The position numbers were made by a program, and so were the translations under genes. From IMG/VR virus record IMGVR_UViG_3300031759_000010: DNA of 64,000 nt; one strand, 5' to 3'. Positions within the stretch are counted from its first letter, which is position 1; each line of letters begins with the position of its first letter. Positions 11,340 through 53,052 of this stretch are shown in pieces. The stretch is from a virus. Under the pieces are notes generated by a model. It saw only the letters and a program-made list of their open reading frames with translations, was not told where the DNA came from and ran no database searches.

Positions 11340-11560
11340 AGGCTTGATTTTGTCCAGCGTTAGTGCGAAGATTGTTCTGCGGGGTGATTGTTTCACTCCT
11401 TCCCATATGACTCCTTGAGCAGAATCACATGGTCACCCCGCTCATCCCCCAAAAAAGCACAAAAAGAGCCCCCAGGTTGACATCCTCCCCTCCCTGAAGG
11501 AAGGGGATTCCTACGAGGGCGGCTTACGCCGCTCTTTCGGAGGGTTCCTGCTGCTGACGG
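11340..11560 (-). ncRNA. Candidate TnpB omega (right-end) RNA scaffold
   Basis: In this family the guide RNA overlaps the tnpB 3' end and right end. Here there is a 9-bp hairpin at 11486-11507 and a 9-bp long-range helix (11379-11387 with 11433-11441). Extent and guide are unknown. Confidence 0.3.
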
Positions 11561-12711: not shown

Positions 12712-12733
12712 GACTTTATTGTATACTTGGTCT

Positions 12734-19230: not shown

Positions 19231-19306
19231 TGGTAAATGAAATGGGATTTGAACCCACTACCCTTCGCTTATTATGCAAATGCTCTACCGAGTGAGCTAT
19301 TCATTC
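19231..19306 (-). tRNA. tRNA, 76 nt, encoded CCA, anticodon AAU (Ile by canonical numbering)
   Basis: Hand-folded cloverleaf: acceptor GAATGAA/TTCATTT, D-arm GCTC-ACTCGGTA-GAGC, anticodon arm TTTGC-ATAATAA-GCGAA, T-arm GTGGG-TTCAAAT-CCCAT, then A-CCA. Confidence 0.85.
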
Positions 19307-20218: not shown

Positions 20219-20439
20219 TCCTCATCCTCGGGGTCTTCCTTTTTCTTCCCCTTGTGGGGCTCAGGCTCGTCGTCCTCATCCTCTTCATCGAGAATATCGG
20301 CCAGTTCCAAGGCTGGGCGGCGCACATCGAACGGATCAACTCTTCCCTTGACGTAGACGCGGCATTTCTTCGCCCCGGTCTCCTGGATGGCAATGATGCA
20401 GCACTCGCTGATAAACAGACCCTCTTCAACCTCGATCAT
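20209..20439 (-). CDS. Small protein with highly acidic C-terminus
   Basis: 76-aa ORF, ATGA-type coupled to the 1505-aa gene stop. Tail DILDEEDEDDEPEP...EDPEDEDQS. Confidence 0.5.
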   Translation of the reverse strand: MIEVEEGLFISECCIIAIQETGAKKCRVYVKGRVDPFDVRRPALELADILDEEDEDDEPEPHKGKKKEDPEDEDQS

Positions 20440-33431: not shown

Positions 33432-33641
33432 CTACGCCATCAAGCCGACGCTGCGGCTCGGTCTACGCCGGTCCTCATACCACTTCTCGCAGTCTGTAAG
33501 GCGATGAATGGAGAGTTCGAAGATATCGCGGCTCTCCATATGAGCCGCCCCGCACGAGTTGCAGTACGGGTGGTGGTCAATAAGCCACACGCAGCGCTTG
33601 CGGCGATTGTTGCACTTGAAGCAAAGGAGCCTTACGGTCAT
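33432..33641 (-). CDS. Small zinc-ribbon protein
   Basis: CFKC...CNSC. ATGA-coupled to the stop of the 1442-aa gene. Confidence 0.5.
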   Translation of the reverse strand: MTVRLLCFKCNNRRKRCVWLIDHHPYCNSCGAAHMESRDIFELSIHRLTDCEKWYEDRRRPSRSVGLMA

Positions 33642-36600
33642 GTCGTCAAATCCGCCTGTTTATATCCAACCGACTCAAGGCAGGCCTTCCACCAAAGCTG
33701 AGGAGACTGCCACATTTGGAAGCCCGTAGACCCCGAGGCGATGTTTCCCACCATTCTGAAGTCGCGCAGCTTGATTGCCGGGAAACGAACGCGCACCGTC
33801 GCGCGTCCAGGTTCTGCCGGGAGAGTGAAAGTGTAATAGGGGACCGTTGATCCGTCGGCATACAAGCCAAACGTCACGGCCAGTGCACTCGTGTAATCAA
33901 ACACGCACTGCTTGACCAGCTTGTTAAGCTCGGTCCCGCCAAGAATCCAGTAAGTGTCAAACGTGTAGCGGAACGCCGCCAGCTCGGCCGCGTATACGTT
34001 CTCCTGATAGAGAATAGGAGCCACGGTGACCGGCATGGTGTGAGTCAGAGACATGCGGTACCCCTGCTGCCCAAGACCGGCATTGACCTCAAGCTGCACT
34101 TTCTGGCGAGAGGTTGTTGACGCCGTGGCCAGCGGGACGGTAACCGAACCATCATCGAAGGTCAGCGAAGTCGTCATCACCTGACCCTGGGTGTTTACGT
34201 CCGTCTCGATCACGTTCCACTGCTTCGGATAGTGGGGCTTCCCAAGATCCTGATATGGCATCTGGATTGCGATGTTGATTGGGTTCTTGAGAAGGTATCC
34301 CGAGTACCACCCTCCATCGTCGTAATCCATTGAGTACACCTGATCCTGAACAATGGCGTAGTTCCCGGCGGAGATGAGATATGAGCCCAAAAAGGTGTTT
34401 GTGTCGCGCTCCCACAACATCGCCGTCATCGGCAAAGAGTCGTTCCTGAAGCGCTTGTATACCGTGTCGTAGATCAGGCGATAACGCAAACCGCTCAGAG
34501 AGATGTAGGAAACATACACCTCGTTGTTGTAGTAGCACATCACATCGTTTGCGGCTTGAGAGTTGTCGGCCAGAGGAAGTGGCGTGAGTGGATTGTTGCG
34601 GTATACCCACTCCACGGGAAGGCTCATATACGCGCCCTCCGAACCTTTGAACTCGCGCAGCCCGTCCGCCGCACGATACCAGATTGCCCCCTCCGTCTGA
34701 GTCCACCCTTGCTGGGCCACAATGCCATGCTGTGAGCCCGTTGGCTGCGCGATGGGGTTTGCCCCACCCTGGATGACATACCAGGTCGTCAGAGTGCCAA
34801 CAAAGAGCGTTCCGCGCCAGTTGATCACCGCGTTGATTGGATCCGACGGGGTGGATACGTTCAGGTAGTTCTCTGGACCAAAGTTTTCCGGCTGCCCCGG
34901 CTTCGAGAAGTAAAGATATCCGGGGTTGTTTTTGTCTCCGGCCAGCCACACGCGATTGTACGCAAGGGCGCACAGGTTACATGGTTGGCGAGGAACGGCA
35001 TAGACGTTTACCGGCTCTCCCTGATTGTGCTTCAGGCGGAGGATCGCATAAAACGTGGTCGTCGTGCTGGTTGTTCCTCCAACCTGAGTAATTGCCACCT
35101 CCTCCAGGTTTGAAGGGTTGCCGACAATAACAATTTGATTGACGACCAATCCCGAATACACGCCATTGACTGTCACCGCCTGCGGAGAAAAGGTGCTATA
35201 GGCGGAGTTAAGACCAGCCTGGGTGGTGGACAGTGCGAGTGTGGTCTGAATCGGGTTCACGAGAGAGCTTGTGACCGGCGGGTCGTTGTCTTCCACCAGA
35301 ATCTGCGCCTGACCAACATAGGAATCGGAGATCACATCCTTGAACACATATTGGCCGCCGCCGGTAATGTTGGGAATCTGTCCCACCTGAACCCAGTCCT
35401 GGGAAAGAACTCCGCCACGGCGATAGTTGCGAACATGAGTCACCTGCGGATCGGAAGAATACTGGCCAGTCACCCGAACAGCCTGACGAAGAACCGTCAG
35501 CGGATCTGTTGAGGCGAGATATCCGAAATCCTCATTGAAGGTCTGTTCTGGACACGGAGAAGACTCCGTTCCGGTGTTCGCGTTGTAATAGGTTTGGCGG
35601 TAATCGTACCCCACTCCAGCAAAAGACGATAGACCATACCCCCACTGCAAATACAGGCCGTTGACAGAAAACGTAACCCCCCCTGTATTGGTGTTGGTGG
35701 TAACGCCAAGGGTCCACCCGGTGACGTTCGACCAATTCAATCCGGGTTGACCGGCCTGTCCGACCGGCAAAAAATCTCCCCTCCTCATGTAGCAAGCAGA
35801 CCAGGAACCAGCGCCTGAAGAGATATTAGATGGCTGAATCTGTGCCGAGATAGACCCCGGAGGCTGACCAGTAACCAGGTTGAGGCTGTCAGCTAGAATC
35901 TGCTGCTCCGTTGCCGAATATGCCAGTTGGGTCTCTGCGACCGCCTGCTGGTAATAGGCTGGCGAAATGAACTTGGTGTAGTAGTTGACCGGATTGCCTA
36001 GATTGCTTGCCCCAACCCAGAATTGAAGCTGAATCTGAGACACATTGATAGGTGCCGATGTAAGGAGCGTTAACACAATCAGGTCGTCATCGGTAACCTG
36101 ATTGTTCTGGTTCAGGTCAAGGGCAACCGTTCTTGAGATGGTTCCAGTTGTTGGGGTTGATCCGCTACTTGCCGCCACGGTCCCAGACCACGCGCCAATA
36201 GGAAAACTGTTCAACGTGCTCGATGCGGTTCCGCTGTCAGAGGTAGACCCAACAGCTCCCGGGGTAAACGACGAATTGCTTGCCGTAAAGGTCGATCCGG
36301 TCGAGGCCACCGTGAACAGAAGACCATTCATCTGAAGCCCAATGGTTGTGCTTAGTCCGGCGATCAAAACCACCTGTCCAGAAACAAAGGAATTGGACGC
36401 AGTAACAAAGCTGACCACATTCCCGGCCGACACAGAGTACGATGTAATCGCCGCCGACACGGTAGACCCAACAGGAACCCACTGATAGAAACCCCAAGCC
36501 GTCATCTGAGATGGATAGGGAGTCGTGTACTGGTTGGACAAAGCGCAGGCATATGGAGACGACGCTCCTCCAGTAACATACCCCCCAGTGGCTCCAATGA

Positions 36601-37966
36601 TCGTTGCCGAAGTAAATGGAATGGTGAATGTGTTCGATGTCGGTGTGGCGGCAACCTGATAAAAACCATCCACTAAATCGCTGGAGGAGGCATAAATTCC
36701 AATCATGCTTCCAGCAGATAATCCGTGGGCGGTTGTCGTGGTGACAAGGAGTTGCGTATACAGCCCCCCCACCAAGGTCTGCGCTGTAACGGTGGAGATG
36801 GGAACATTGATCGTGGTGTTGGTGTTAAGAATTGACACCATGCCGTTCTGAACAGGACCAAATGCTCCGGGGTTGGAAACGGTGATTACGGCCCCGGTGA
36901 TTGAGGCGCTGCACGAGATGATGTTGTAGCTGAACGCTGTCGCTTGACACGTTACATTCAAATACACCGTATTGATGTTTGCCACGGAAAACGTCGCAGC
37001 CCCTCCGGCAGACACGACATTTCCGGTTATCGTATTCGAGTAGCTGTTCAAGGGTATCCATGTGACCCCAGAGTCCAGGCTATACTCATACGTCGCCGTA
37101 GCGTTGCCGTTGGCGTTGCTGGAAAATGAGAAGCTTACGCTTCCAAACACCTGCACGGTGACGGTCTGTCCAGACACCGGAACCAGAGAAGGAAAACCAT
37201 AAACATTTGCTCCCGCCTGCGGGCCCACGCTCCCGGGAACGCTTATCGAAACAGAAGAAATGTTCGTCGATGATGTTGGGGTATACTGAGAGCCTCCTCC
37301 GCCAGCCGGAGATATCTGCGAAAACTGACTGAAATCCGTAACCATAGAACCGGACGATGCGTTAAGGGTTTCAATGTTCGACCACCCCCACCCGGTCACG
37401 CTTGCTGATACGCTGTACGGGTTTGATATATTCGCAAACGAGTCGATCATCGACAGAAGCGGCGCATACGGAATAGAGTTCACCGTATACGGAGACATGT
37501 CGATGCCTGTCAACTGTGAAGCTGAAAGGCTGCCGTTGTCTTTGATTGAAACGCTCTGGTCGTAGATGAACAGGTATGGCTGGCTGGTCTCAAAACAGGC
37601 AGTAATCAGGGAATCGAATGGCTTTCCAGACATCCCTGAGTAAATAGACGTGTAGCTTCCCTGAGAGTTTCCGGAGATGCGGTAAAGACTCCCGTCAGAT
37701 GTCCCCGCATACCGCCACGCGCTGCCTTGATAGGTCAGCCGGGCAAGCGATGTCACAGGGTATGAGAAGTAGTAGTTGTTGGCGGTGACGGCGTTGCGAT
37801 TGATCACAAGCGTACCGTACCGCGAGGACATGGACGTCTCTTCGCGAACCTGACAGTTCAGGGTCGTCAGATATGTGTACTCGGGAGCGCGGTCCGTGAT
37901 ATCCCGCGCAATCAAACCCTTCGATGAATAAAGGTACGATACCGGCCGGTAGGCTGTGTCTGTCAT
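33638..37966 (-). CDS. Giant tail/baseplate structural protein
   Basis: 1442-aa ORF with Ser/Thr/Gly-rich beta-type sequence. Lies in the tail module and is coupled at both ends. Confidence 0.75.
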   Translation of the reverse strand: MTDTAYRPVSYLYSSKGLIARDITDRAPEYTYLTTLNCQVREETSMSSRYGTLVINRNAVTANNYYFSYPVTSLARLTYQGSAWRYAGTSDGSLYRISGNSQGSYTSIYSGMSGKPFDSLITACFETSQPYLFIYDQSVSIKDNGSLSASQLTGIDMSPYTVNSIPYAPLLSMIDSFANISNPYSVSASVTGWGWSNIETLNASSGSMVTDFSQFSQISPAGGGGSQYTPTSSTNISSVSISVPGSVGPQAGANVYGFPSLVPVSGQTVTVQVFGSVSFSFSSNANGNATATYEYSLDSGVTWIPLNSYSNTITGNVVSAGGAATFSVANINTVYLNVTCQATAFSYNIISCSASITGAVITVSNPGAFGPVQNGMVSILNTNTTINVPISTVTAQTLVGGLYTQLLVTTTTAHGLSAGSMIGIYASSSDLVDGFYQVAATPTSNTFTIPFTSATIIGATGGYVTGGASSPYACALSNQYTTPYPSQMTAWGFYQWVPVGSTVSAAITSYSVSAGNVVSFVTASNSFVSGQVVLIAGLSTTIGLQMNGLLFTVASTGSTFTASNSSFTPGAVGSTSDSGTASSTLNSFPIGAWSGTVAASSGSTPTTGTISRTVALDLNQNNQVTDDDLIVLTLLTSAPINVSQIQLQFWVGASNLGNPVNYYTKFISPAYYQQAVAETQLAYSATEQQILADSLNLVTGQPPGSISAQIQPSNISSGAGSWSACYMRRGDFLPVGQAGQPGLNWSNVTGWTLGVTTNTNTGGVTFSVNGLYLQWGYGLSSFAGVGYDYRQTYYNANTGTESSPCPEQTFNEDFGYLASTDPLTVLRQAVRVTGQYSSDPQVTHVRNYRRGGVLSQDWVQVGQIPNITGGGQYVFKDVISDSYVGQAQILVEDNDPPVTSSLVNPIQTTLALSTTQAGLNSAYSTFSPQAVTVNGVYSGLVVNQIVIVGNPSNLEEVAITQVGGTTSTTTTFYAILRLKHNQGEPVNVYAVPRQPCNLCALAYNRVWLAGDKNNPGYLYFSKPGQPENFGPENYLNVSTPSDPINAVINWRGTLFVGTLTTWYVIQGGANPIAQPTGSQHGIVAQQGWTQTEGAIWYRAADGLREFKGSEGAYMSLPVEWVYRNNPLTPLPLADNSQAANDVMCYYNNEVYVSYISLSGLRYRLIYDTVYKRFRNDSLPMTAMLWERDTNTFLGSYLISAGNYAIVQDQVYSMDYDDGGWYSGYLLKNPINIAIQMPYQDLGKPHYPKQWNVIETDVNTQGQVMTTSLTFDDGSVTVPLATASTTSRQKVQLEVNAGLGQQGYRMSLTHTMPVTVAPILYQENVYAAELAAFRYTFDTYWILGGTELNKLVKQCVFDYTSALAVTFGLYADGSTVPYYTFTLPAEPGRATVRVRFPAIKLRDFRMVGNIASGSTGFQMWQSPQLWWKACLESVGYKQADLTT

Positions 37967-42492: not shown

Positions 42493-43398
42493 CTATCCTG
42501 CCACTACTTGAAGTTTACCGCACATTACCAGAAAACCAATCTTTTCAGCTTCATGATGAAGCTTCTTGTGCTCCGAATTTGTAACTATCTTAAAGTTCTC
42601 CACGCGGTTGTCCTGGTGATCTCCATTGATGTGATGGATATGTTCGCTAGGCTTTAGTTTTCTTCCGATATGGACCTCCATGATATACCTATGCTCTGGA
42701 ATCCATTTCCCATCCTCCGCCCTAACGCACCACTCGTTACTGCTTGGCCACCACCTGCGAGATCCAATTGTTCCGCTCGAAAGGCTTGATTGGTACTTCC
42801 CTTGGCACTCCTTACCGCAGAGCATATTATTCCTCTTCCACGACTTGCTCCTGTCTTTAGGTATAGGATTCCCGCAGTATATGCACTTCTTTTCCGGGTA
42901 GGCGTCATGCCACTTTTGCTCTGCAATCCTCTTCTTCAACAGCACCGCGCACCGCACCTTACAGCACACCTTTTCCGAGGAAGGTATAACATCGAACTTA
43001 TCCCCACACTCCACACACTCGCGGGTTTCAATCTTTCTCATAATCACAGAACGGCACTTTCTGCTGCATGTTTTTCTTAAGTTATCCTCACACTGGCTTA
43101 TCCAAAAACTACCCCCGCACGCGAGGCACTTCTTTTCGATCTTCTTGCCGCTTCCCGGCCTGTATAGGCGACGATAATTGCGATTCGCGCAGGATTTGCT
43201 GTGATACTTCCTCCTTCCAATATGGCTCGGAACAACGCGCATCATAACCCCGCATCCCAAGCATGGAATCTCGACACTATTTCTTGCCCTCCACCTATAA
43301 GAACACGACTTACCGCAAGTGGGGCGATCTGCATCTCTTTCGGCAACAATAAAATTGTTACCACATACCTCACAGCGTTTTTCTACCATCTTAGCCAT
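42493..43398 (-). CDS. Free-standing HNH homing-endonuclease-like protein with multiple zinc ribbons
   Basis: Repeated CxxC pairs. C-terminal HIHHINGDHQDNRVENFKIVTNSEHKKLH. Visibly more AT-rich than the flanking structural genes. Confidence 0.8.
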   Translation of the reverse strand: MAKMVEKRCEVCGNNFIVAERDADRPTCGKSCSYRWRARNSVEIPCLGCGVMMRVVPSHIGRRKYHSKSCANRNYRRLYRPGSGKKIEKKCLACGGSFWISQCEDNLRKTCSRKCRSVIMRKIETRECVECGDKFDVIPSSEKVCCKVRCAVLLKKRIAEQKWHDAYPEKKCIYCGNPIPKDRSKSWKRNNMLCGKECQGKYQSSLSSGTIGSRRWWPSSNEWCVRAEDGKWIPEHRYIMEVHIGRKLKPSEHIHHINGDHQDNRVENFKIVTNSEHKKLHHEAEKIGFLVMCGKLQVVAG

Positions 43399-43889: not shown

Positions 43890-44774
43890 TTAAATCTGTT
43901 GCAACGCCGGGTTCAGAAGCACGTCGCAGGTGGTGTTGGTCGAAAGATTGGACCACGCCACGCCGAGGTAGTTCTGATACGGGTTGGCTGTTCCCTGGGC
44001 TGTGCGTACCACCGTAAACGCGTTCGTCGATGTCACCGACATAGACAAAGAGTCTCCGATGACCACCGAGGCCACAGCCGAAACGTTTGGCACCAGTCCG
44101 CCGACCGCGATCCAGCACCAGTTGCCATTCAAGGCAGCCGCTGTTGCACCAGAGGTCGTGTTGGCCAAAAGAACCCCGGCGCATGCGTTCGGGATCATGG
44201 CGGCGTTGTTGGTTGTTACGCCATACGCTTCGTTCGCGTATCCAGAAACCGTCGTGCATGTCGAGTCGGTGTAGTAAACACCGGCCGAGTAGGCCAGCAA
44301 CGTCGGGTTGTTCTGGCTCGAATAGCGCACATACTTCACAACCGGAGGAACGCCGTTCGGAACCTTGGAGCCAAAGAAGCAGGTCAACTGGGCCAAGGTA
44401 ACGCTGGTCGTCGTCGCCTTTGAGAGCGTCAGGGTTGTCGTGCTCGGGATGGCCGCAATCGTGGTGCCGGTAGGCACACCGGATCCGGTGACCGTCATTC
44501 CGACAGACAACTGGGTGGTGTTGGTTACGGCCGTCACGTTCACGGATGTGCTGGTCGTGCCAAGCACCGTGGTTGCCGGGGCATAGTTCGTGCTGAACCC
44601 GGAGTATTGGGTGAAATACTGCCACGGAAGGCCAGCATACACCGCGCCCGGAGGATTCAGTGCGCCATTCGGCCACTGGGTTTGGCTGGTCTGGCTGCCG
44701 GTCGCCACATAGGGGTCGATGGCGGTATACAGGTTTCCAGTCGAGATATTCGGGAAATCAATTCCGTAGCTCAT
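43890..44774 (-). CDS. Thr/Ser-rich structural protein (decoration or tail protein candidate)
   Basis: 294-aa ORF directly downstream of the capsid gene. Confidence 0.6.
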   Translation of the reverse strand: MSYGIDFPNISTGNLYTAIDPYVATGSQTSQTQWPNGALNPPGAVYAGLPWQYFTQYSGFSTNYAPATTVLGTTSTSVNVTAVTNTTQLSVGMTVTGSGVPTGTTIAAIPSTTTLTLSKATTTSVTLAQLTCFFGSKVPNGVPPVVKYVRYSSQNNPTLLAYSAGVYYTDSTCTTVSGYANEAYGVTTNNAAMIPNACAGVLLANTTSGATAAALNGNWCWIAVGGLVPNVSAVASVVIGDSLSMSVTSTNAFTVVRTAQGTANPYQNYLGVAWSNLSTNTTCDVLLNPALQQI

Positions 44775-44891: not shown

Positions 44892-45866
44892 TTAGCCAGT
44901 TATACCCGTCAGCACAAAGCCGGTGCGCGGCATCGAAACAACGACGTCGCCGATAAAGCAAAGCTGTCCAGCGGCCTGCCATGCGTTCGGAAGCTCCTTG
45001 AAGCCGGTGAATCCGAAAGCAAACTGCTCCTGCGTCGAGATGTACACCGTGAGAGCGTTGGTGTTCATGCCGAACAGATAGCCAGCCGGGCAATACTGGT
45101 CAACCACAACACGCTGGCCGTTGAAGCGGAACGAGTTGAAGCCGATGTTCTGGGTGTTGTCCTCGCCAAAGTTATCCATAACGCGCTGCGCCGGGAGCAT
45201 CTTGGCCCACAGGGCGTTGTAGATGATCTGCGTGGTTGAGAACAGGTTCGGCTGCATGGGGCCAAACGTCGCCTGACCGTATGCCTTCTGAAGCGTGTTC
45301 AGGGAGACGATTCCACCCACGTTCAGGTAGTAACCGTTGATTCCAGCTGAGGCTCCAGTACCAACCAGCGACCGCGACACGTTGCCGTAGGAGGGATAGT
45401 TGGTGCCGTCGTCATATGCGGCCTGTAGGCCGTCCAGCGCGATGATCGAGGAGTTTGTTCCCTGGCCATCCAGATAGAAGTCGGTAACCAGGTTGGTTGC
45501 CATCGCCTGACCGCCGTTCACCATCTGCTGCTCGACGTAGCCCATCACACCAGCGCCGCCATGGTTAATGGCAAGCTGCGCCTCGTCGATGGTCACGTTG
45601 ACGTAATACTGCTTCGGGTTGAAGGTCATCGCAGTGTCAACCTGAACCTGCGAAATGTCGAAGGTTGAGCCGAAGGTAGTCGCCCCGCCCTTCAGCGGTG
45701 CATACTGGAACGGCTGCTGAATCCAGGTGCCGCCGTTGTAATCGGCTGTCCGATCACCCTTGAACATCAAGTAGAAAACTGGCGAATACTTATAATAGTT
45801 GTCCGCCATCTCCGGCACGATGAATGGGAGGGTGATCGCATTGATGTTGTTGTAATTCAGCGCCAT
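44892..45866 (-). CDS. Major capsid protein candidate
   Basis: 324-aa ORF immediately downstream of a scaffold-like gene. Size and composition are typical of HK97-fold capsid proteins. The call rests on synteny. Confidence 0.65.
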   Translation of the reverse strand: MALNYNNINAITLPFIVPEMADNYYKYSPVFYLMFKGDRTADYNGGTWIQQPFQYAPLKGGATTFGSTFDISQVQVDTAMTFNPKQYYVNVTIDEAQLAINHGGAGVMGYVEQQMVNGGQAMATNLVTDFYLDGQGTNSSIIALDGLQAAYDDGTNYPSYGNVSRSLVGTGASAGINGYYLNVGGIVSLNTLQKAYGQATFGPMQPNLFSTTQIIYNALWAKMLPAQRVMDNFGEDNTQNIGFNSFRFNGQRVVVDQYCPAGYLFGMNTNALTVYISTQEQFAFGFTGFKELPNAWQAAGQLCFIGDVVVSMPRTGFVLTGITG

Positions 45867-47154: not shown

Positions 47155-47186
47155 GAGGGGGATGTCTCCATCCCCCTCTTGGTTTT
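47155..47186 (+). terminator. Perfect 10-bp stem hairpin with T-tract on the plus strand
   Basis: GAGGGGGATG-TCTC-CATCCCCCTC followed by TTGGTTTT. No plus-strand gene lies upstream, so its role is unclear. Confidence 0.4.
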
Positions 47187-47333
47187 AAATCTGCTGCGTG
47201 ATTACTTCACGCGCTTTGCGCTACGCTTGCCGTGGCGCTTTCCACCCTTGCGGCCCTTGTGACGTGCCATATGGATGTACTCCTTTCGTGAAAGGATCGG
47301 CGTTTTTAACGTGCCCGTCTCCACGAACACCAA

Positions 47334-47351
47334 AGTAACCAAACATGGTTA
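47334..47351. promoter_or_regulatory. Inverted repeat GTAACC-N6-GGTTAC upstream of the plus-strand sugar-modification operon
   Basis: Uses the same hexamer half-sites as the 31664 and 57206 elements, in the inverse arrangement. Confidence 0.35.
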
Positions 47352-47469
47352 CCTTGGAGTTGATTTAACTGTACCCAATCAGATTGGCGTGTCAAGAGAT
47401 ACGTCCAAATTGACATCTTTTTTCCTCGACCCGTTCTGCGCCAGAGTAAAATGTTCTTGCGGAGGAGAC

Positions 47470-48645
47470 GTGCCACATAAAATCCTTGTTCTCTCGGACT
47501 TACCGACATCCAGCTCTGGATTAGCGAAAATATCGCGCGAACTGGCGTGCAGAATCAATAAGATGGAAGATTTCGAGGTTGCCAGTTATGGGTCTGGAGG
47601 AATCGCCTCCAAGCGCTTCCCGTGGCCACAATGCGAACTGGCTGGTCCAAATGCTCTTGCCCCTCAAAATCTCCCAGAAGCATGGACAGACTTCGCCGGA
47701 AATGAAAGAGGAACCCTGCTTACGATATGGAATCCGGGATGGCTCGGGTGGCTTACGCATCCAGAGCTTCTGCCGGACGGGAAGCTGAAAAACTTCATCC
47801 AATCCGATCCATTTGATGTTTGGGCATACCTCCCCCTGGACGCCGAAGGCCCGGACGGCCGCGTACCACTGGGAATTGCGAATATCATCAAGAGGTTCGA
47901 CCGGCCCCTGGCTTACACGCAATGGGAGGCCGACATGATCGACAAGACCATCGGCGGCAACATAGAACATCTTCCACATGGAACCGACTCGTCAATCTTC
48001 TATCCGCGAGACAGAGAGTCATCCCGGTCCTCCCTGGTCAACTTGGTCACAGAAAAAGGCGACTATCCAATCAAAGATGGAACCCTGATGATTGGGGTTG
48101 TGGCCACAAACAGCGCCAGAAAGGATTGGCAACTGGCGTTCCAAGTTGGGCGGGAACTCGTGAATCGCGGACTCAATATCGGCCTCTGGTGCCACACGGA
48201 TGCCTATGTAAAATACTGGGATATCCCCGCCCTTATTGCCGAATACGGGTTGGATGGGAGGGTTATCGTCTCCAACAAACACCTCACCGACAACGAGGTG
48301 GCTACCTGCTTTTCCGCCTGCGACGTCACCTTTGGAATAGGTAGGGGCGAGGGGTGGGGATTACCCCTAAGCGAATCTCTTGCGGCCGGGACTCCGGTTG
48401 TTCATGGAAAATACGCCGGAGCCACCGAATTCATACCGCCCAATATGCTCGTTGAGCCCATAGCGCTTTTCAACGACGACTTCTACGGACACCAGAGGCC
48501 GGTCTTCAATGTGTCAGACTGGGCAGACAAAACCATCTTCGCGGCATCGCTCGGAACCGGAAAATCTCTCCTCGATCCCAAGTTCTACTGGGACAACTGC
48601 TGGGCGAGCTGGGAAGAGTGGCTGAAGAGAGGAATTGCCAAGTGA
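47470..48645 (+). CDS. Glycosyltransferase, GT4/GT1-type
   Basis: GRGEGWGLPLSESLAAGTPVV is the E-x7-E-type GT1 signature. GTG 47470 is preceded by GGAGGAG. The ORF extends upstream to 47275. Confidence 0.8.
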   Translation: MPHKILVLSDLPTSSSGLAKISRELACRINKMEDFEVASYGSGGIASKRFPWPQCELAGPNALAPQNLPEAWTDFAGNERGTLLTIWNPGWLGWLTHPELLPDGKLKNFIQSDPFDVWAYLPLDAEGPDGRVPLGIANIIKRFDRPLAYTQWEADMIDKTIGGNIEHLPHGTDSSIFYPRDRESSRSSLVNLVTEKGDYPIKDGTLMIGVVATNSARKDWQLAFQVGRELVNRGLNIGLWCHTDAYVKYWDIPALIAEYGLDGRVIVSNKHLTDNEVATCFSACDVTFGIGRGEGWGLPLSESLAAGTPVVHGKYAGATEFIPPNMLVEPIALFNDDFYGHQRPVFNVSDWADKTIFAASLGTGKSLLDPKFYWDNCWASWEEWLKRGIAK

Positions 48646-50051
48646 GAATCTGTCTGGTTACTCCACCCAGCCCATTCCTCCTCGACCAGCGGGTCTTTGT
48701 CTCTCTCGGAATCCTGAAGGTCGGAGCCGTACTTGAGCGCCAAGGGTTCTCCGTTGACCACGTTGACCTGACTGGAGTCTCCAACTACGAGGAGGCTATA
48801 AGGGACTACCCCCACAAAGACGCAATCTTCGCCCTCACGGCAACCACCCCTCAAATGCCATCCGCGATAGCCATCAGATCTGCCCTTGCAGGCTCTCGCA
48901 CCATCCTGGGAGGCCCACATACCACCCTAATCAACGCAGCGGCCAAGAAGGGCAACCAGAGGTCAGCAGAGATGCTGTCAGAGCTGGTCTCCATATTTGG
49001 AACAGTGGTCGCCGGAGATGGAGAGAAGTCAATTTTCACCGCCATACACCAGCGGGGGCTTATTGACGCCGACGACCCCAAGTCGATCCTCTGGAATACC
49101 TCCAAAGACTTCACAGATGACCCATGGCCAGCCCGTCACCTGGTGGACATGTCTTCCTACCACTACACGGTAGACGGAAGAAAGTCATACTCTCTGATCG
49201 GCCAAACCGGGTGCCCGATGCACTGCAACTTCTGCGGAGGAAGAAACTCTCCCATGTTGAGGCAGATTCGCAAGCGGTCCACAGAAAACATCGTCGCCGA
49301 AATGATGCACCTTCACGACGTGTATGGTGCCGATGGAGCCATGTTTTACGACGACGAACTCAATATCAACAAAAGCATCATCCCACTGATGAGGCAAATT
49401 GCCAACACCGGGGTTGACTGGCGTCTGCGCGGATTCGTGAAGTCTGAATTGTTCACCGAAGAGCAGGCGGAGTCGATGTATGCGGCCGGTTTTCGCTGGC
49501 TTCTCTGTGGATTCGAGGCGGCGCATCCGCGCATCCTCCGCAATATCGCCAAAAACGCCACCGTCCAAGACAACACTAACATGCTAAGAATCGCCCACAA
49601 GCACGGCTTAAAGGTCAAAGCCCTCATGAGCGTCGGCCACCCCGCAGAGAGCGAAGAGACAATCCTCGCCATGCGCGACTGGCTGCTCGACGAAAAGCCC
49701 GACGACTTCGACGTAACCGTGATCACTGTGTATCCGGGAACTCCGTACCATGACAGCGCTATCGAGGTCGCGCACCCGATATACAGGTTCGACACGTTTG
49801 GCGATTCTCTCTACTTTGAGAGCGTTGACTTCAACAAAGAGCAAGCCTTTTACAAGGGAAAGCCGGGAGAATACCGCTCCTATGTGTGGACAGACTTCAT
49901 TTCGCGCGAACGCCTGGCGCAGATGCGAGATGAGATAGAAGATGAGGTGCGGTCAAAACTGTCCATCCCTTACCCCACGGCGGCGGAAGCAGTAGCCTAT
50001 GAACACAGCATGGGCATGAGCCTGCCCACCAACATATTGAGGACAAAATGA
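48642..50051 (+). CDS. B12-binding-domain radical SAM enzyme
   Basis: GCPMHCNFCGG is the CxxxCxxC motif. The N-terminal ICLVTPPSPF...GILKVGAVLERQG is B12-binding-like. GTGA overlap with the upstream stop. Confidence 0.85.
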   Translation: MRICLVTPPSPFLLDQRVFVSLGILKVGAVLERQGFSVDHVDLTGVSNYEEAIRDYPHKDAIFALTATTPQMPSAIAIRSALAGSRTILGGPHTTLINAAAKKGNQRSAEMLSELVSIFGTVVAGDGEKSIFTAIHQRGLIDADDPKSILWNTSKDFTDDPWPARHLVDMSSYHYTVDGRKSYSLIGQTGCPMHCNFCGGRNSPMLRQIRKRSTENIVAEMMHLHDVYGADGAMFYDDELNINKSIIPLMRQIANTGVDWRLRGFVKSELFTEEQAESMYAAGFRWLLCGFEAAHPRILRNIAKNATVQDNTNMLRIAHKHGLKVKALMSVGHPAESEETILAMRDWLLDEKPDDFDVTVITVYPGTPYHDSAIEVAHPIYRFDTFGDSLYFESVDFNKEQAFYKGKPGEYRSYVWTDFISRERLAQMRDEIEDEVRSKLSIPYPTAAEAVAYEHSMGMSLPTNILRTK

Positions 50052-50581
50052 ACATTGAGAAAGCCCTCGCAACACCCGGATGGATGGGGGAAAGGGACCT
50101 GGAGTACCTTGCCCATGCCGCATCCAAATCCTCAACCATCGTTGAAGTAGGGTCGTGGATGGGACGCAGCACCCTGGCCCTGGCCTGCAATACCGCCGGA
50201 ACAATCTATGCCGTGGATACATGGCAAGGAACCGAACAGCAGGGCGACTTTTTGGCAGACAAGGATCCGGACTGGCTCCTTGGAGAATTCAGAAAATACA
50301 CCTCATGCGCGGCAAATATCATCATCTGCAAGGGGCCATCGGCAGATATCGCCGCATCCTTTCCAGACATCACCGCCGACCTGATCTTCATCGATGGGTA
50401 TCACACCTATGAAGGAGTGAGAGACGACATCCTGGCATGGAGACCCAAACTTCGCCCCGGAGGAATCCTCTGCGGACACGATTACGGAGCCCCGCCTTGG
50501 GATGGAGTCAAGCAGGCGGTGGATGAGCTGGTACCCAAGTTTCGCATTATCGATTCAATCTGGACTACGGAGGAAGAGTGA
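50048..50581 (+). CDS. Class I SAM-dependent methyltransferase (Methyltransf_24-like)
   Basis: IVEVGSWMGRSTLALA...LIFIDGYHTYEGV...GGILCGHDY. ATGA overlap with the upstream stop. Confidence 0.8.
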   Translation: MNIEKALATPGWMGERDLEYLAHAASKSSTIVEVGSWMGRSTLALACNTAGTIYAVDTWQGTEQQGDFLADKDPDWLLGEFRKYTSCAANIIICKGPSADIAASFPDITADLIFIDGYHTYEGVRDDILAWRPKLRPGGILCGHDYGAPPWDGVKQAVDELVPKFRIIDSIWTTEEE

Positions 50582-51228
50582 GCGATTACAAGATGTGGAT
50601 TCCATACCTTAACCGTCCCGACCTTCTCGATACGGCCGTAAGGTCATCTGAAGCCTACGGTTCAAACCGTATCATTATTGACAACTCCCCAGAAGGCCTG
50701 CCAACAGACACCTGGATGCACTGGCATGGAGTCTACGTTCTTCGCCCCCTGGTTCCCCTTTCATGCCCCCAAACCTTCAACTACATCATGAGGACGACAC
50801 AAGAACAGGGAGCAAACATCTGCATCTGGATGCACAACGACGCCGAGCCCCACCCAGGCGTATGCGAAGAGCTTCTCAAGATCGCGCGTCAGTCCAACCT
50901 TCAAGGCAGAAAGTGGGGAGTCCTGTGGACCCACTACGACACGCTGTCGGCTATCAACACAGATTTACTGTCGGCAGGCGTCGAGTGGGACACAACCTTT
51001 TGGCAGTATTTTTGCGACAACGACTTCTATCGGAGGGTTCGTCTGGCTGGATACGAGTGCATTGACACTGGTCTTCAGGTGAACCACCCCGGAAGCCAGA
51101 CCATCAACAGCGATCCAGCCATAAAACTGAAGAACAATGCAACCTTCATGCTCTACAGGGACTACTACATCCGCAAGTGGGGCGGAGAGCCGGGGCACGA
51201 AGCATTTACAACCCCATTCGGAGTCTAA
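50578..51228 (+). CDS. GT2-like glycosyltransferase
   Basis: IPYLNRPDLL...IIIDNSP, HNDAE (DxD-like) and CDNDFYRRVRLAGY. GTGA overlap with the upstream stop. Confidence 0.6.
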   Translation: MSDYKMWIPYLNRPDLLDTAVRSSEAYGSNRIIIDNSPEGLPTDTWMHWHGVYVLRPLVPLSCPQTFNYIMRTTQEQGANICIWMHNDAEPHPGVCEELLKIARQSNLQGRKWGVLWTHYDTLSAINTDLLSAGVEWDTTFWQYFCDNDFYRRVRLAGYECIDTGLQVNHPGSQTINSDPAIKLKNNATFMLYRDYYIRKWGGEPGHEAFTTPFGV

Positions 51229-53052
51229 CTACTTCTTCTTCCCAGATTCCTTTGCTTGGTGGGCAGCCTGCCCCATAGCCATGGCCATCTGCGCCTTCTT
51301 CGCGGACTCTTCGTCGAGGCGGCGCTGAATCAGTGAGATGTTCAGGTTCGCGTTGAACTTGGAGTTCAGGAACTCAAGGAAGGTGGTGTGATCAATCTCA
51401 CCCGCCCTGCGAAGCTGCGACATCTGCGCCAGCTCATCCGTGCGCTCAATCGCCAGCAAAGAACCACGGCGAATCGTAAACGACACGTTGCGAACGAAAT
51501 CCTCGGGCTCCATGGTGGCTGGGCAGAGGTGCTTGTAGTAGGGGTGGAAGTCGGAGTCGGTCAATCCCTTCGATCCATACTGAGCCACGCGCTTATCGGC
51601 CGTCTCAAACTGCAACATGTTGCTGACAACCATCACGCCGACCTCTTCCATAAAAGACTGGAGGCCGCGCCCATACAGGCGAATGTTTCCCGCCCGCGAG
51701 TTGACAATCATTTCCAGGGAATCGCCGCCCGGAATCTGTTTCTTCTGGAGGGTCTGGTTCACTGCCGCCGCGCCAGAGTTCATCGCCATCTCCTTGTCGA
51801 TTCCGTCACGCATCGGCATGGTGTAGTTGCCAAGCTCGGGAGGCTTGCGAAACTCAGGAGGACGAGGAGAGTTGTTGCGGTAGAAAATCTTGCCACCAGG
51901 GGCTCCGGGGTCAATTGAGTCTTTGTCCTGATCGCTAAACGCCGCCATAGGGGCCATCATCGTCGGCTCTATAGTGGAGTTGATTACATCCAGAACTCCT
52001 CCCTCAATCCGATTCAAAATAGCCTGCATGGCGCACAGGGGATCCATGATGCTTTGACCGGCAAACTTCCACGGAACGCGGAGTGGGCGATAGATCGCGA
52101 ACGGAAACCGGCCGTGCCAATATGGATTCGGCGCATCCTCAAGAACCCTTCCTCCGGCCACCGCCAACACGCGGCCACGAGGATACTTCGGCATGCCCGG
52201 TTCAACCCGATACGACCAGCAGGCGTTCGGATCTCCAATGATTATCGACTCCGACCCATCCCAAATGCTGTCGTCCTTAAACCAGAACTCCTTGTAAATC
52301 ACCTTGGGAAACTTGGTGGTTGGAGCCCCGGCCCCAGAGTTGGCCAATTTGGAGTGGATGTTCCTCATCAAAGGACTCAATTTGGCCCAGCGGCGAGAAG
52401 ACACAGCGTTCGGCCTTTGCGGGGTAGCCGACATCTCCGACTCGATGTCAGGCTGAACTCCGTAAGCAACCTCCCCAAACCGGCGGACCAGCCATGGCTT
52501 GGTAACCACCCGGCGAACAATGCAAACCTCAGCCTCGGCCTGAAGACGGCCAGAAGCGCCAATCTGAAGAAAATCGAGGGGCGACAGCGGCTGGAAATCG
52601 TTGCTTCCCATGCCGTTTCGCAGATAGGGGTTCCACTGAACCTTGACGGGACCATAGGAGATCAGGCCATACATGACCACCTGAACCAGTTCCTGCTCGA
52701 AATCGGACATATACGTCCAATCCGTGAGCATCCGATTCATCAGGCTTTCGACTTCAGAGTAGTTCTCGTCCGCATCGGTGAACTTGACCCGGACATCCGG
52801 CTGAATATCGGTGAGCATCGACGCCATCTCGACAAACTGACGAACAACGCGATTAGCCACCGGACGTGAGCGTCCGTGCCTGGCCGTTGAAGCCCACTGT
52901 TTTCCCTCAAGGAAGTCGATGACTCTCTGAACCTGTTTCGATTCGGGAGACGACATAAGCTCTGAATCGGCTTCCTCATAGACAGAATTTGCCCAATCGA
53001 GGACTTCGGCTTCCAGCTTAACTTCGGGGCGCTCTTGTAGGGAGGCGTTCAC
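51229..53052 (-). CDS. Portal protein candidate
   Basis: 607-aa ORF between the large terminase and the head genes. Called from size and synteny. Confidence 0.65.
   Translation of the reverse strand: MNASLQERPEVKLEAEVLDWANSVYEEADSELMSSPESKQVQRVIDFLEGKQWASTARHGRSRPVANRVVRQFVEMASMLTDIQPDVRVKFTDADENYSEVESLMNRMLTDWTYMSDFEQELVQVVMYGLISYGPVKVQWNPYLRNGMGSNDFQPLSPLDFLQIGASGRLQAEAEVCIVRRVVTKPWLVRRFGEVAYGVQPDIESEMSATPQRPNAVSSRRWAKLSPLMRNIHSKLANSGAGAPTTKFPKVIYKEFWFKDDSIWDGSESIIIGDPNACWSYRVEPGMPKYPRGRVLAVAGGRVLEDAPNPYWHGRFPFAIYRPLRVPWKFAGQSIMDPLCAMQAILNRIEGGVLDVINSTIEPTMMAPMAAFSDQDKDSIDPGAPGGKIFYRNNSPRPPEFRKPPELGNYTMPMRDGIDKEMAMNSGAAAVNQTLQKKQIPGGDSLEMIVNSRAGNIRLYGRGLQSFMEEVGVMVVSNMLQFETADKRVAQYGSKGLTDSDFHPYYKHLCPATMEPEDFVRNVSFTIRRGSLLAIERTDELAQMSQLRRAGEIDHTTFLEFLNSKFNANLNISLIQRRLDEESAKKAQMAMAMGQAAHQAKESGKKK

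What the first reader, a model, noticed from the sequence alone, without database searches (positions are those of the whole stretch)
47275..51228. Opposite-strand glycosyltransferase / B12-radical-SAM / methyltransferase operon inside the head-assembly module
Four plus-strand genes (GT4, B12-binding radical SAM, Methyltransf_24-like MTase, GT2-like) are chained by GTGA, ATGA and GTGA overlaps. They sit between the portal gene and the scaffold/capsid genes, which are all on the minus strand.

The cargo looks like synthesis of a methylated or otherwise tailored sugar. Several nearby virion proteins are extremely Thr/Ser-rich (43890..44774, 5435..9874, 33638..37966). Virion glycosylation is therefore one hypothesis. 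Modification of host surface glycan (seroconversion or superinfection exclusion) is another. An inverted repeat with GGTTAC half-sites lies upstream at 47334-47351. A strong plus-oriented hairpin at 47155-47186 precedes the island.
Basis: partly seen in the sequence, partly recalled or inferred. Interest (0 to 1): 0.65.

Follow-up and report, generated by a model that had tools for sequence, protein, structure and literature searches.

The report
Phage sugar-tailoring island with radical SAM enzyme
An uncultured phage carries an optional four-gene sugar-building and sugar-tailoring block between its portal and head genes. The block is built around a radical SAM enzyme found in many uncultured phages but absent from the cultured phage records searched, and it most likely puts a modified glycan on the virus particle.

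Summary
The four plus-strand genes are real. They are chained by GTGA, ATGA and GTGA overlaps, and the family calls hold: a GT-B/GT4 glycosyltransferase, a B12-domain radical SAM enzyme, a Methyltransf_24 methyltransferase and a GT-A-fold glycosyltransferase.

Two details need correcting. The first gene starts at GTG 47470 (391 aa), not 47275. The GGTTAC inverted repeat and the 47155 hairpin belong to the leader of the minus-strand head operon. Both sit at the same positions in a close relative (L009: capsid protein 94%, portal 73.5% identical) that lacks the island.

So the island is an accessory insertion. It runs from the portal stop codon to the head-operon promoter and replaces a terminator-bearing spacer of about 60 bp.

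The radical SAM enzyme belongs to a large, conserved family of uncultured phages. It is 48-81% identical across 80 or more viral contigs, has no close homologue in 50,697 cultured phage records, and often carries inteins. At least one sugar-pathway gene lies within 10 kb in 79 of 86 loci. In seven other loci that share this capsid family, the gene sits inside the structural module.

The closest characterised analogue is the methyltransferase-plus-three-glycosyltransferase cassette of mycobacteriophage Corndog, which sits between the terminase and major head protein genes.

Best reading: late, cytoplasmic glycosylation of virion proteins with a tailored sugar. The target and the radical SAM reaction are inferred, not shown.

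The parts
47470..48645 (+). GT-B (GT4-type, Glycos_transf_1) glycosyltransferase, 391 aa. The start is corrected from 47275.
   Evidence: PF00534 3.5e-7 (above cut-off) and phrog_2170 7e-26. An EX7E motif (EGWGLPLSE) is visible in the translation. Homologues in L021, L018, L019, L022, L036 and L042 align from residue 66-70 of the long ORF. GGAGGAG lies 2 nt upstream of GTG 47470. Sister contigs give 391-aa gene calls.
48642..50051 (+). Radical SAM enzyme with an N-terminal B12-binding-type Rossmann domain, 469 aa. It is the conserved core of the cassette.
   Evidence: PF04055 6.6e-20 and PF02310 1.1e-5. CPMHCNFC is a CxxxCxxC motif, with Cys191, 195 and 198 invariant in alignment A1. The model has pLDDT 86, and its best PDB matches are AprD4, TsrM, MgmA, OxsB and TokK. 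Best NCBIfam scores are far below every family cut-off.
50048..50581 (+). Methyltransf_24 class I SAM-dependent methyltransferase, 177 aa, probably a sugar O-methyltransferase.
   Evidence: PF13578 3.1e-23. The best solved relative is 6g7d, 'Methyltransferase domain protein', at 1e-6. It shares an ATGA overlap with the radical SAM gene. It is a neighbour of the radical SAM gene in 21 loci.
50578..51228 (+). Small GT-A-fold glycosyltransferase, 216 aa (the 'ORF4 family').
   Evidence: No Pfam hit, but phrog_29879 at 1e-13. The AlphaFold model has pLDDT 94.8. Foldseek top hits are all GT-A enzymes: AvpGT, WrtF, TarP, RmlT and GpgS. D88 is invariant and D147 and D149 (the DND motif) are conserved in at least 90% of sequences in alignment A2. 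Some homologues are named GT2, and some are fused to Methyltransf_24.
47396..47469 (.). Left junction of the island and the divergent control region between the GT gene and the head operon.
   Evidence: Similarity to the island-less relative L009 ends at the -35 box of the head-operon promoter. No plus-strand promoter was called by the sigma-70 scan.
47368..47395 (-). Sigma-70-like promoter of the minus-strand head operon (TTGACA, 16 nt, TACAGT).
   Evidence: A TTGACA / GATACT pair read from the sequence sits at the equivalent place in L009, after the portal terminator.
47326..47361 (-). It belongs to the head-operon leader, not to the island.
   Evidence: 16-nt arms, 88% complementary. The RNA fold is -34.7 kcal/mol with z = -5.0. 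A hairpin at the same place in L009 folds more weakly, z = -1.6.
47202..47270 (-). Conserved 22-aa, very basic small ORF (MARHKGRKGGKRHGKRSAKRVK), the first ORF of the head operon.
   Evidence: Read from the sequence. L009 has MARHKGRKGGKRSHKRGSKRSK at the same place.
47155..47178 (-).
   Evidence: L009 has a hairpin with a different stem sequence at the same intergenic position.
51226..51231 (.). Right junction. The stop codons of ORF4 (TAA) and of the portal gene (CTA on plus, which is TAG on minus) sit back to back with no intergenic base.
   Evidence: In L009 the portal stop is followed by a GC hairpin plus a T-run.
51229..53052 (-). Portal protein, the flanking gene that converges on the island.
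   Evidence: PF23899 SU10_portal 1.7e-11 and phrog_1216.
44892..45866 (-). Major capsid protein (flanking head operon) and a candidate glycan acceptor.
   Evidence: phrog_9953 3.3e-22. It is 94-96% identical in L009 and L029.

Best explanation
The island (about 47396..51228) is an accessory, horizontally exchanged four-gene operon. It encodes soluble cytoplasmic enzymes that build and tailor a short glycan.

Proposed roles:
- The GT-B enzyme and the small GT-A enzyme transfer sugars from host nucleotide-sugar pools.
- The Methyltransf_24 enzyme O-methylates a sugar.
- The B12-domain radical SAM enzyme carries out a radical step on a sugar carbon. This is either C-methylation, as in class B methylases, or an AprD4-like dehydration/deoxygenation.

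The most likely acceptor is one or more virion proteins made at the same time: the capsid protein, the Thr/Ser-rich 294-aa protein encoded just after it, or the 1442-aa tail-module protein. The particle would then leave the cell coated with a modified glycan, as shown for cluster O mycobacteriophages.

Shown: gene structure, family and fold assignments, accessory status and insertion site, the family-wide linkage of the radical SAM enzyme to sugar genes, and its recurrent placement in structural modules.

Inferred: the acceptor, the timing of expression, the sugar, and the reaction type of the radical SAM enzyme.
For: Genes and families.

Accessory status: L009 has capsid protein 94%, portal 73.5% and scaffold 60% identical. 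There the portal stop is followed by a terminator hairpin, a promoter and the same leader, with no island. All ten contigs read that carry the identical portal protein, from several sequencing runs, carry the island.

Mosaic origin: the radical SAM enzyme is 80% identical to that of L021, whose flanking genes do not match the window's. The GT is closest (44-46%) to those of L036 and L042.

Link to sugar pathways: of 86 loci with this radical SAM gene, 61 have an annotated GT cluster, 31 a methyltransferase and 42 nucleotide-sugar enzymes within 10 kb. 79 have at least one. The nearest solved structure is the sugar diol-dehydratase AprD4. Methyltransf_24-ORF4 fusion proteins exist.

Placement in structural modules in seven other loci sharing the capsid family:
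- L049, L051: terminase, radical SAM, portal.
- L106: radical SAM, terminase.
- L077: capsid protein, two small proteins, three GTs, three Methyltransf_24 genes, radical SAM.
- L073, L093: capsid protein, an S/T-rich protein, GT-A, an S/T-rich protein, radical SAM.
- L036: adaptor, c133, GT4, radical SAM, ORF4 family, then the homologue of the window's 1442-aa protein. L042-L044, whose held stretches do not include a capsid gene, show the same adaptor-to-c135 order.

Precedent: in Corndog, a TylF/Methyltransf_24 methyltransferase plus three GTs lie between the terminase small-subunit gene and the major head protein gene. [quoted passage not shown] 2023).

Other points: no membrane segments in any of the four proteins, and no integrase or thymidylate-synthase-like domain in the parts of the window checked.
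Against: No direct evidence of glycosylated virion proteins exists, and the phage is uncultured.

The island is on the opposite strand to the late genes, with no detectable promoter or terminator of its own. Late co-expression is therefore not shown for this phage. Read-through from the portal gene would be antisense to the island.

In another phage lineage (L001, L018, L019, L021, L032-34, L041, L045, L046) the cassette sits beside DUF1064, RusA and HNH genes and a conserved roughly 310-aa protein of unknown function, rather than beside recognisable head genes.

There is no sequence similarity to the Corndog enzymes beyond a shared Pfam family for the methyltransferase.

Thr/Ser enrichment of fibre-like proteins is common and is weak evidence. 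The close relative L009 does without the island while keeping a 94% identical capsid protein.
Confidence: 0.45

Rival explanations
1. The cassette modifies a host envelope glycan (O-antigen, capsule, teichoic acid or S-layer glycan) from the cytoplasmic side during infection. This would block superinfection or stop progeny from sticking to debris.
For: Phage GTs of the same GT-A fold do this; the prophage-encoded TarP is among the structural matches of ORF4. Most marine loci embed the radical SAM gene in large nucleotide-sugar and GT clusters that resemble surface-polysaccharide loci. The island is a strand-inverted, separately controlled block, as is typical of genes that phages add for effects on the host.
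Against: No membrane protein, flippase, polymerase, ligase or priming phosphoglycosyltransferase is present. All four proteins lack hydrophobic segments. No integrase or repressor domain was hit in the parts of the window checked, so classical lysogenic seroconversion is unlikely. In related phages the cassette is repeatedly embedded co-directionally inside structural operons.
Confidence: 0.25
2. The cassette hypermodifies phage DNA by glycosylating and methylating a modified base, to evade restriction.
For: Phage GTs commonly glycosylate DNA (the review statement and the reference to Pyle et al. 2024 in PMC12619734). In some lineages the cassette neighbours DUF1064, RusA, HNH or DUF5131 genes. 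In L049, L051 and L106 the radical SAM gene lies next to the terminase gene.
Against: No thymidylate-synthase-like hydroxymethylase, DNA kinase, TET/JBP or deazaguanine gene was hit by Pfam in the window's called genes. Several small GT-A enzymes plus one to three sugar-type methyltransferases point to an oligosaccharide. Nucleotide-sugar enzymes and GT11/GT31-type transferases are frequent neighbours.
Confidence: 0.1
3. The radical SAM enzyme acts directly on a virion protein, for example by C-methylating a side chain as the methyl-coenzyme M reductase methylases do. The GTs and the methyltransferase would be separate decorators.
For: MgmA (9ccb) and TIGR04014 are among the better matches. 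In L049 and L106 the radical SAM gene has no GT immediately beside it, between or next to the terminase and portal genes.
Against: 79 of 86 loci have sugar-pathway genes nearby. L051 and L077, from the same group, have GTs and methyltransferases in the same module. The best structural match is a sugar-acting enzyme.
Confidence: 0.07
4. The cassette makes a free small molecule or lipid glycoside (an auxiliary metabolic function) unrelated to the virion, DNA or envelope polysaccharide.
For: The best NCBIfam match is HpnJ, a hopanoid sugar ring-contraction enzyme (81.9 bits). Matches to PhpK and AprD4 come from natural-product pathways.
Against: All these scores are far below family cut-offs. No scaffold-forming genes are present. 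The family was found here in viral contigs and phage-like contexts.
Confidence: 0.08

Closest known systems
Virion glycosylation cassette of cluster O mycobacteriophages (Corndog gp35-gp38; Freeman et al. 2023, as cited in PMC11600133)
   Same: A compact block of one TylF/Methyltransf_24-type methyltransferase plus several small soluble GTs. It lies inside the head-morphogenesis region, after the terminase small-subunit gene and before the major head protein gene. The window's methyltransferase is in the same Pfam family (PF13578).
   Different: There is no detectable sequence similarity between the enzymes. Corndog has no radical SAM enzyme and no GT-B enzyme. The Corndog cassette is co-directional with the structural genes, whereas the window's island is inverted. 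The hosts are unrelated. The function is shown experimentally there and only inferred here.
Chlorovirus PBCV-1 capsid glycosylation machinery (virus-encoded cytoplasmic GTs and methyltransferase domains; B736L structure 3oy2)
   Same: Virus-encoded soluble GTs. The GT-B enzyme B736L is among the few solved relatives of the window's GT. That this machinery makes methylated sugars on the capsid protein is from my own knowledge.
   Different: It is a eukaryotic virus, the similarity is only remote (E 2.5e-4 over about 60 residues), and there is no radical SAM enzyme.
Class B (cobalamin-type) radical SAM enzymes and their non-cobalamin look-alike AprD4
   Same: An N-terminal Rossmann (B12-binding-type) domain, a CxxxCxxC radical SAM barrel and a C-terminal domain. 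The best structural matches are AprD4 (TM 0.64-0.70), TsrM, MgmA, OxsB and TokK. AprD4 acts on a sugar.
   Different: Identity is at most 19%. No NCBIfam family cut-off is approached. The family forms its own phage-borne clade. AprD4 does not bind cobalamin (PMC12931638), so neither cobalamin use nor methyl transfer can be assumed.
Seroconverting phage systems (GtrABC, prophage TarP)
   Same: Phage-borne GT-A glycosyltransferases carried as add-on genes. TarP is a structural match of ORF4.
   Different: Gtr systems are membrane proteins of temperate phages. Here there are no membrane segments, and no integrase domain was hit in the parts of the window checked.
T-even-type DNA glucosylation and other DNA glycan hypermodification
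   Same: Phage GTs acting in the cytoplasm.
   Different: No base-activation enzyme (hydroxymethylase or similar) was detected in the window. The cassette composition fits an oligosaccharide with methylation.

Membership tests
GT-B / GT4 (Pfam Glycos_transf_1) | Match to PF00534 above the gathering score | tested here: met
   30.4 bits against a cut-off of 26.4, over residues 320-388 of the long ORF. phrog_2170 'glycosyltransferase' scores 7e-26.
GT-B / GT4 (Pfam Glycos_transf_1) | EX7E motif in the C-terminal Rossmann domain | tested here: met
   GRGEGWGLPLSESLAAG contains E-(7 residues)-E (translation). That this motif defines the family is from my own knowledge.
Radical SAM superfamily | CxxxCxxC cluster-binding motif and a PF04055 match | tested here: met
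   CPMHCNFC. C191, C195 and C198 are invariant in 30 homologues. PF04055 scores 72.4 bits against a cut-off of 29.5.
Class B (cobalamin-dependent) radical SAM | N-terminal B12-binding (PF02310) domain | tested here: inconclusive
   The window protein scores 25.6 bits, below the 32.1 cut-off. Intein-bearing homologues P0212, P0214 and P0239 score 41-45 bits and P0216 scores 32.0 bits. The fold matches TsrM, TokK and OxsB, but also the non-cobalamin enzyme AprD4.
Class B (cobalamin-dependent) radical SAM | Actual cobalamin binding and methyl transfer (SAH plus 5'-deoxyadenosine formed) | not testable with these tools
   Needs reconstitution. AprD4 shows that the domain architecture alone is not sufficient (PMC12931638).
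Named B12-radical SAM families (HpnJ, PhpK, AprD4, BchE, MgmA-type) | Score above the NCBIfam family cut-off | tested here: not met
   The best is HpnJ, at 81.9 bits against a cut-off of 577.6. All others are also far below their cut-offs.
Methyltransf_24 (class I SAM methyltransferase, TylF/CmcI-like) | PF13578 match above the gathering score across the full domain | tested here: met
   83.1 bits against a cut-off of 26.3, covering profile positions 1-105 of 105.
GT-A fold glycosyltransferase (GT2-like) | Single Rossmann-like GT-A fold | tested here: met
   The model has pLDDT 94.8 and pTM 0.90. All 50 Foldseek matches listed are glycosyltransferases, most of them recognisable GT-A/GT2 enzymes, with E down to 3e-9.
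GT-A fold glycosyltransferase (GT2-like) | Conserved acidic (DxD-type) motif | tested here: met
   D88 is invariant, and D147 and D149 (DND) are conserved in at least 90% of 36 homologues. Their role in metal or nucleotide binding is inferred.
GT-A fold glycosyltransferase (GT2-like) | Pfam PF00535 membership | tested here: not met
   The window protein has no Pfam hit even at E 0.05. Only two homologues carry precomputed PF00535.
Phage virion-glycosylation cassette (Corndog type) | GT and methyltransferase genes located within the head or structural gene module | tested here: met
   In the window the island lies between the portal gene and the scaffold and capsid genes. Relatives carry it inside structural modules. 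For Corndog.
Phage virion-glycosylation cassette (Corndog type) | Homology to the characterised enzymes | tested here: not met
   BLASTP shows nothing better than E 0.1. hhalign of the ORF4 family against gp37 gives probability 13%. Only the methyltransferase's Pfam family is shared.
Phage virion-glycosylation cassette (Corndog type) | Glycans attached to capsid or tail proteins | not testable with these tools
   Needs mass spectrometry of particles or co-expressed proteins.
Seroconversion (Gtr-type) system | Integral membrane GtrA/GtrB/GtrC-like proteins in a temperate phage | tested here: not met
   The maximum 19-residue Kyte-Doolittle mean is 1.47 or lower in all four proteins. No integrase domain appears in the gene calls covering most of the window.
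DNA glycosyl-hypermodification system | Base-activating enzyme (dCMP/dUMP hydroxymethylase, TET/JBP or a DNA kinase) encoded by the phage | tested here: inconclusive
   None appears among the precomputed Pfam hits of the called genes. Many genes have no hit at all, and about 36-40 kb of the window was not covered by these gene calls.

The most novel reading that the evidence does not exclude
A large family of B12-domain radical SAM enzymes, found here in uncultured phages and phage-like contexts and undescribed in the searched literature, performs a radical tailoring step on glycans that phages attach to their own particles. The step would be C-methylation or deoxygenation of a sugar. That would make radical-SAM-dependent virion glycan modification a widespread trait of environmental phages, from 40-kb podoviruses to genomes of nearly 400 kb.
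Probability: 0.3. Interest if true: 0.8.

Novelty: new variant of a known kind. Interest (0 to 1): 0.6.

Why it matters
Virion glycosylation by phage-encoded enzymes has been shown experimentally only in a few mycobacteriophages, where it weakens the neutralising antibody response (PMC11600133).

This locus suggests that a chemically richer version, with a radical SAM tailoring enzyme, is common in uncultured soil, freshwater and marine phages. It also appears to move between phages as a cassette.

The radical SAM family is strongly conserved and is often invaded by inteins. It has no close homologue among the cultured phage records searched and no assigned reaction. It is therefore a defined target for enzymology: a new sugar C-methylase or dehydratase.

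The pair of near-identical phages, one with the island and one without, offers a natural experiment on what the glycan does.

Tried and rejected
1. Searches for more island-less or island-bearing close relatives gave little. The capsid-protein scan of viral contigs returned only L009. The single metagenome scan returned only L029, which stops before the portal gene. The genome-collection scan with the radical SAM protein returned two distant MAG loci and no host assignment.

2. Cultured phages: tblastn of the radical SAM protein found only Streptomyces phage SF3 (30% over the core, next to thymidylate kinase and NUDIX genes). The GT found only remote (22-25%) matches. These are not informative for function.

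3. Literature: no paper in the library combines phage, B12-binding radical SAM and glycosyltransferase. The hits read were irrelevant. Freeman et al. 2023 is not held, so it is cited only through PMC11600133.

4. PADLOC found no defence-system match for any of the four proteins.

5. Direct homology to Corndog gp35-38 was rejected.

6. Looking for homologues of the window's S/T-rich 294-aa and 124-aa proteins among cassette-bearing loci, to find a co-varying acceptor, gave nothing.

7. GC and GC3 of the island are indistinguishable from the rest of the phage. Composition gives no sign of recent foreign origin.

8. The sigma-70 and terminator scans found no more sites than expected by chance and no plus-strand promoter for the island.

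9. I considered reading the 47155 hairpin as a terminator guarding the island. I rejected this because no plus-strand gene lies upstream and the island-less relative has a hairpin at the same place.

10. A planned Pfam tally of 150 immediate neighbours was dropped as too bulky. The cluster-level tally was used instead and is a lower bound.

Full report
**Observation**

The region holds four co-directional plus-strand ORFs in an otherwise almost entirely minus-strand phage window. The last gene's stop codon (TAA, 51226-51228) abuts the stop codon of the converging portal gene (51229-51231) with no intergenic base.

The family assignments hold:
- Gene 1 matches Glycos_transf_1 above the Pfam cut-off and phrog_2170 at 7e-26.
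- Gene 2 matches Radical_SAM at 6.6e-20, with a sub-threshold B12-binding domain (25.6 bits against 32.1).
- Gene 3 matches Methyltransf_24 at 3.1e-23.
- Gene 4 has no Pfam hit but matches a PHROG annotated as galactosyl transferase at 1e-13.

For gene 4, an AlphaFold model built on 36 homologues (pLDDT 94.8) is a GT-A fold, and its 50 best PDB matches are all glycosyltransferases. The flanking genes are the portal (SU10_portal), large terminase, a scaffold-like protein and the major capsid protein. None of the four island proteins has a hydrophobic segment.

**Corrections from a close relative**

A 5-kb viral contig, L009, encodes a capsid protein 94% identical, a portal 73.5% identical and a scaffold 60% identical to the window's. 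It has no island. In L009 the order is:
1. portal stop codon;
2. a GC-rich hairpin with a T-run;
3. a TTGACA / GATACT promoter-like pair;
4. a leader containing a GGTTAC-type hairpin;
5. a 22-aa, highly basic ORF;
6. a second hairpin;
7. a 62-aa ORF;
8. the 134-aa, scaffold and capsid genes.

The window has the same series on its minus strand:
- promoter 47395-47368;
- hairpin 47361-47326;
- 22-aa ORF 47270-47202;
- hairpin 47178-47155;
- 59-aa ORF 47137-46958.

The first 65 codons of the 456-aa ORF overlap this conserved non-coding DNA. A 22-residue stretch of that ORF 'matches' L009 only because of this DNA conservation. GT homologues elsewhere align from residue 66-70. GTG 47470 has a GGAGGAG ribosome-binding site, and most gene calls on sister contigs give 391 aa.

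The island proper spans about 47396..51228 and replaces the spacer of about 60 bp that carries the portal terminator in L009. All ten contigs read that carry the identical portal protein, from several sequencing runs, carry the island. It is fixed in this phage but absent from its nearest known relative. GC and GC3 do not differ from the rest of the genome.

**The radical SAM enzyme is the conserved core of a widespread cassette**

The family is large and tightly conserved:
- The 120 best protein clusters are all at least 64% identical to the window protein.
- A library of 50%-identity representatives holds 227 clusters at E of 1e-30 or better.
- A profile scan of IMG/VR found at least 124 viral loci, on contigs of 6.5 to 393 kb; 80 were kept.
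- The 50,697 cultured phage records contain only one distant match, Streptomyces phage SF3 at 30% over the core. BFVD holds nothing closer than 15% identity.

I clustered the ORFs of 86 loci to find the recurrent neighbours. The commonest neighbours are:
- an NAD-dependent sugar epimerase/dehydratase (37 loci);
- the GT4 family (26 loci);
- Methyltransf_24 (21 loci);
- a UDP-glucose-dehydrogenase-like protein (21 loci);
- cytidylyltransferase, DegT-type aminotransferase, GT11, Galactosyl_T, GT_PLOD-like and several GT2 families;
- further methyltransferases.

At least one such gene lies within 10 kb in 79 of the 86 loci, and this is a lower bound. Some ORF4-family proteins are fused to a Methyltransf_24 domain.

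The radical SAM protein is far more conserved than its partners. It is 80% identical to that of L021, whereas the two GTs share only 39% and L021's flanking genes do not match the window's. The window's GT is closest to those of L036 and L042. The cassette is thus mosaic and moves between unrelated phages.

**What the radical SAM enzyme may do**

It has the CxxxCxxC motif, with all three cysteines invariant. Its three-part architecture, modelled at pLDDT 86, best matches these solved structures:
- AprD4, a 1,2-diol dehydratase acting on the sugar of paromamine (TM 0.64-0.70);
- TsrM;
- the methyl-coenzyme M reductase glutamine methylase MgmA;
- OxsB;
- TokK.

No curated NCBIfam family is approached. 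The best is HpnJ, at 82 bits against a cut-off of 578. AprD4 shares the Rossmann-like N-terminal domain but does not bind cobalamin (PMC12931638).

The evidence supports 'a radical step on a sugar'. It does not decide between C-methylation and dehydration/deoxygenation, and it does not show that cobalamin is used.

**Where the cassette sits in related phages**

Seven other loci share the window's capsid family. In all of them the radical SAM gene lies inside the structural module, on the same strand as the structural genes, but at different places:
- L049, L051: between the terminase and portal genes.
- L106: just before the terminase gene.
- L077: capsid protein, two small proteins, a GT-A, a GT2 and a Glyco_trans_1_2 enzyme, three Methyltransf_24 genes, then the radical SAM gene.
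- L073, L093: interleaved with small Ser/Thr-rich proteins and GT-A genes downstream of the capsid gene.
- L036: adaptor, c133, GT4, radical SAM and ORF4-family gene, directly upstream of the homologue of the window's 1442-aa protein 33638..37966.

L042-L044, whose held stretches do not include a capsid gene, have the same adaptor, c133, cassette and c135 order as L036.

In a different phage lineage the cassette ends an operon that also contains DUF1064, RusA, HNH and DUF5131 genes. There it converges on a conserved protein of about 310 aa with no family hit.

**Comparison with known systems**

The nearest characterised system is the cluster O mycobacteriophage cassette. In Corndog, a TylF/Methyltransf_24 methyltransferase and three small GTs (gp35-38) lie between the terminase small-subunit gene and the major head protein gene. 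[quoted passage not shown] 2023, which is not held). The position and logic are the same. However, the proteins are not detectably homologous, Corndog has no radical SAM or GT-B enzyme, and its cassette is co-directional with the structural genes.

Gtr-type seroconversion is a poor fit. There are no membrane proteins, and no integrase domain was hit in the parts of the window checked.

DNA glycosylation lacks any detected base-activating enzyme (same calls). Many genes have no annotation, so this remains a minor possibility. No defence-system model matches any of the four proteins.

**Most likely mechanism, and its weak points**

The two GTs probably use host nucleotide sugars to build a short glycan. 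The methyltransferase and the radical SAM enzyme then tailor it. The product most probably decorates virion proteins in the cytoplasm before or during assembly.

The gene content, the accessory nature, the link to sugar pathways and the placement in structural modules are shown. The acceptor, the timing and the chemistry are inferred.

The main weaknesses are:
- In this phage the island is inverted relative to the late genes, with no recognisable promoter or terminator of its own.
- Read-through from the portal gene would be antisense to the island.
- The Thr/Ser enrichment of candidate acceptors (22-28% against 11-13%) is ordinary for fibre-like proteins.
- The close relative L009 does without the island.

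I put virion glycosylation at about 0.45, host envelope modification at about 0.25, and DNA modification, direct protein modification and small-molecule synthesis at about 0.1 or less each.

**Verdict**

The interpretation as a tailored-sugar cassette is supported.

The locus is a new variant of a known kind, the phage glycosylation cassette. It is distinguished by a conserved radical SAM enzyme found mainly in phages, with no assigned reaction and no description in the searched literature. It is of moderate to high interest, chiefly as an enzymology target and as evidence that virion glycan tailoring may be common in environmental phages.

Noticed in passing
P0212, P0214, P0216, P0239 (homologues of window 48642..50051): Many representatives of the radical SAM family are 780-930 aa because an intein (Hint / Intein_splicing, one with LAGLIDADG) is inserted beside the CxxxCxxC motif. 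About 20 of the 150 best representatives show the split, over-long pattern.
   Followed up: partly
window 47202..47270 (-); L009 2571..2639: A 22-aa, extremely basic ORF (MARHKGRKGGKRHGKRSAKRVK) with a good ribosome-binding site opens the head operon. It is conserved in the island-less relative. Its function is unknown; it could be a leader peptide or a small DNA/RNA-binding protein.
   Followed up: partly
window 47155..47178 and L009 2655..2680: The hairpin between the 22-aa and 59/62-aa ORFs is kept at the same position in both phages but with an unrelated stem sequence. This suggests a conserved RNA structure (processing, stability or attenuation) rather than a protein-binding site.
   Followed up: partly
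window 11524..12879 (-) and 12710..13156 (+): An IS200/IS605-type element sits inside the phage genome: TnpB (OrfB_IS605 plus a Cas12f1-like TNB domain) and a Y1 transposase TnpA.
   Followed up: partly
window 19231..19306 (-): A single tRNA gene, tRNA-Ile with the unusual anticodon AAT. It lies next to the only other plus-strand gene pair (19511..20748), which has no family hit.
   Followed up: no
window 20436..24953 (-): A 1505-aa protein with Methyltransf_23 (weak) and HATPase_c domains sits among large genes that have no family hits. It may be an injected or anti-defence protein.
   Followed up: no
window 42493..43398 (-): An HNH_3 endonuclease gene sits between the head and tail genes. 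Its called length differs (249, 250, 298, 301 aa) among otherwise near-identical contigs of the same phage, so this spot is variable.
   Followed up: no
P0200 (370 aa), P0208 (336 aa): Natural fusions of a Methyltransf_24 domain with the ORF4-family GT-A domain support the view that the two adjacent window genes work together.
   Followed up: no
window 5435..9904 (-): The 1489-aa Ser/Thr-rich protein has a weak carbohydrate-binding module match (CBM_4_9, E 8e-4, below cut-off). This fits a glycan-binding receptor-recognition protein.
   Followed up: no
L018 (GCA_036279175.1, Candidatus Acidoferrales MAG); P0147 (Terriglobia); P0200 (Acidobacteriota): Several cassette homologues sit on contigs binned with Acidobacteriota. 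The capsid protein's nearest cultured relatives include Tunturiibacter (Acidobacteriota) phages at 23% identity. This is a weak hint at the host phylum.
   Followed up: no
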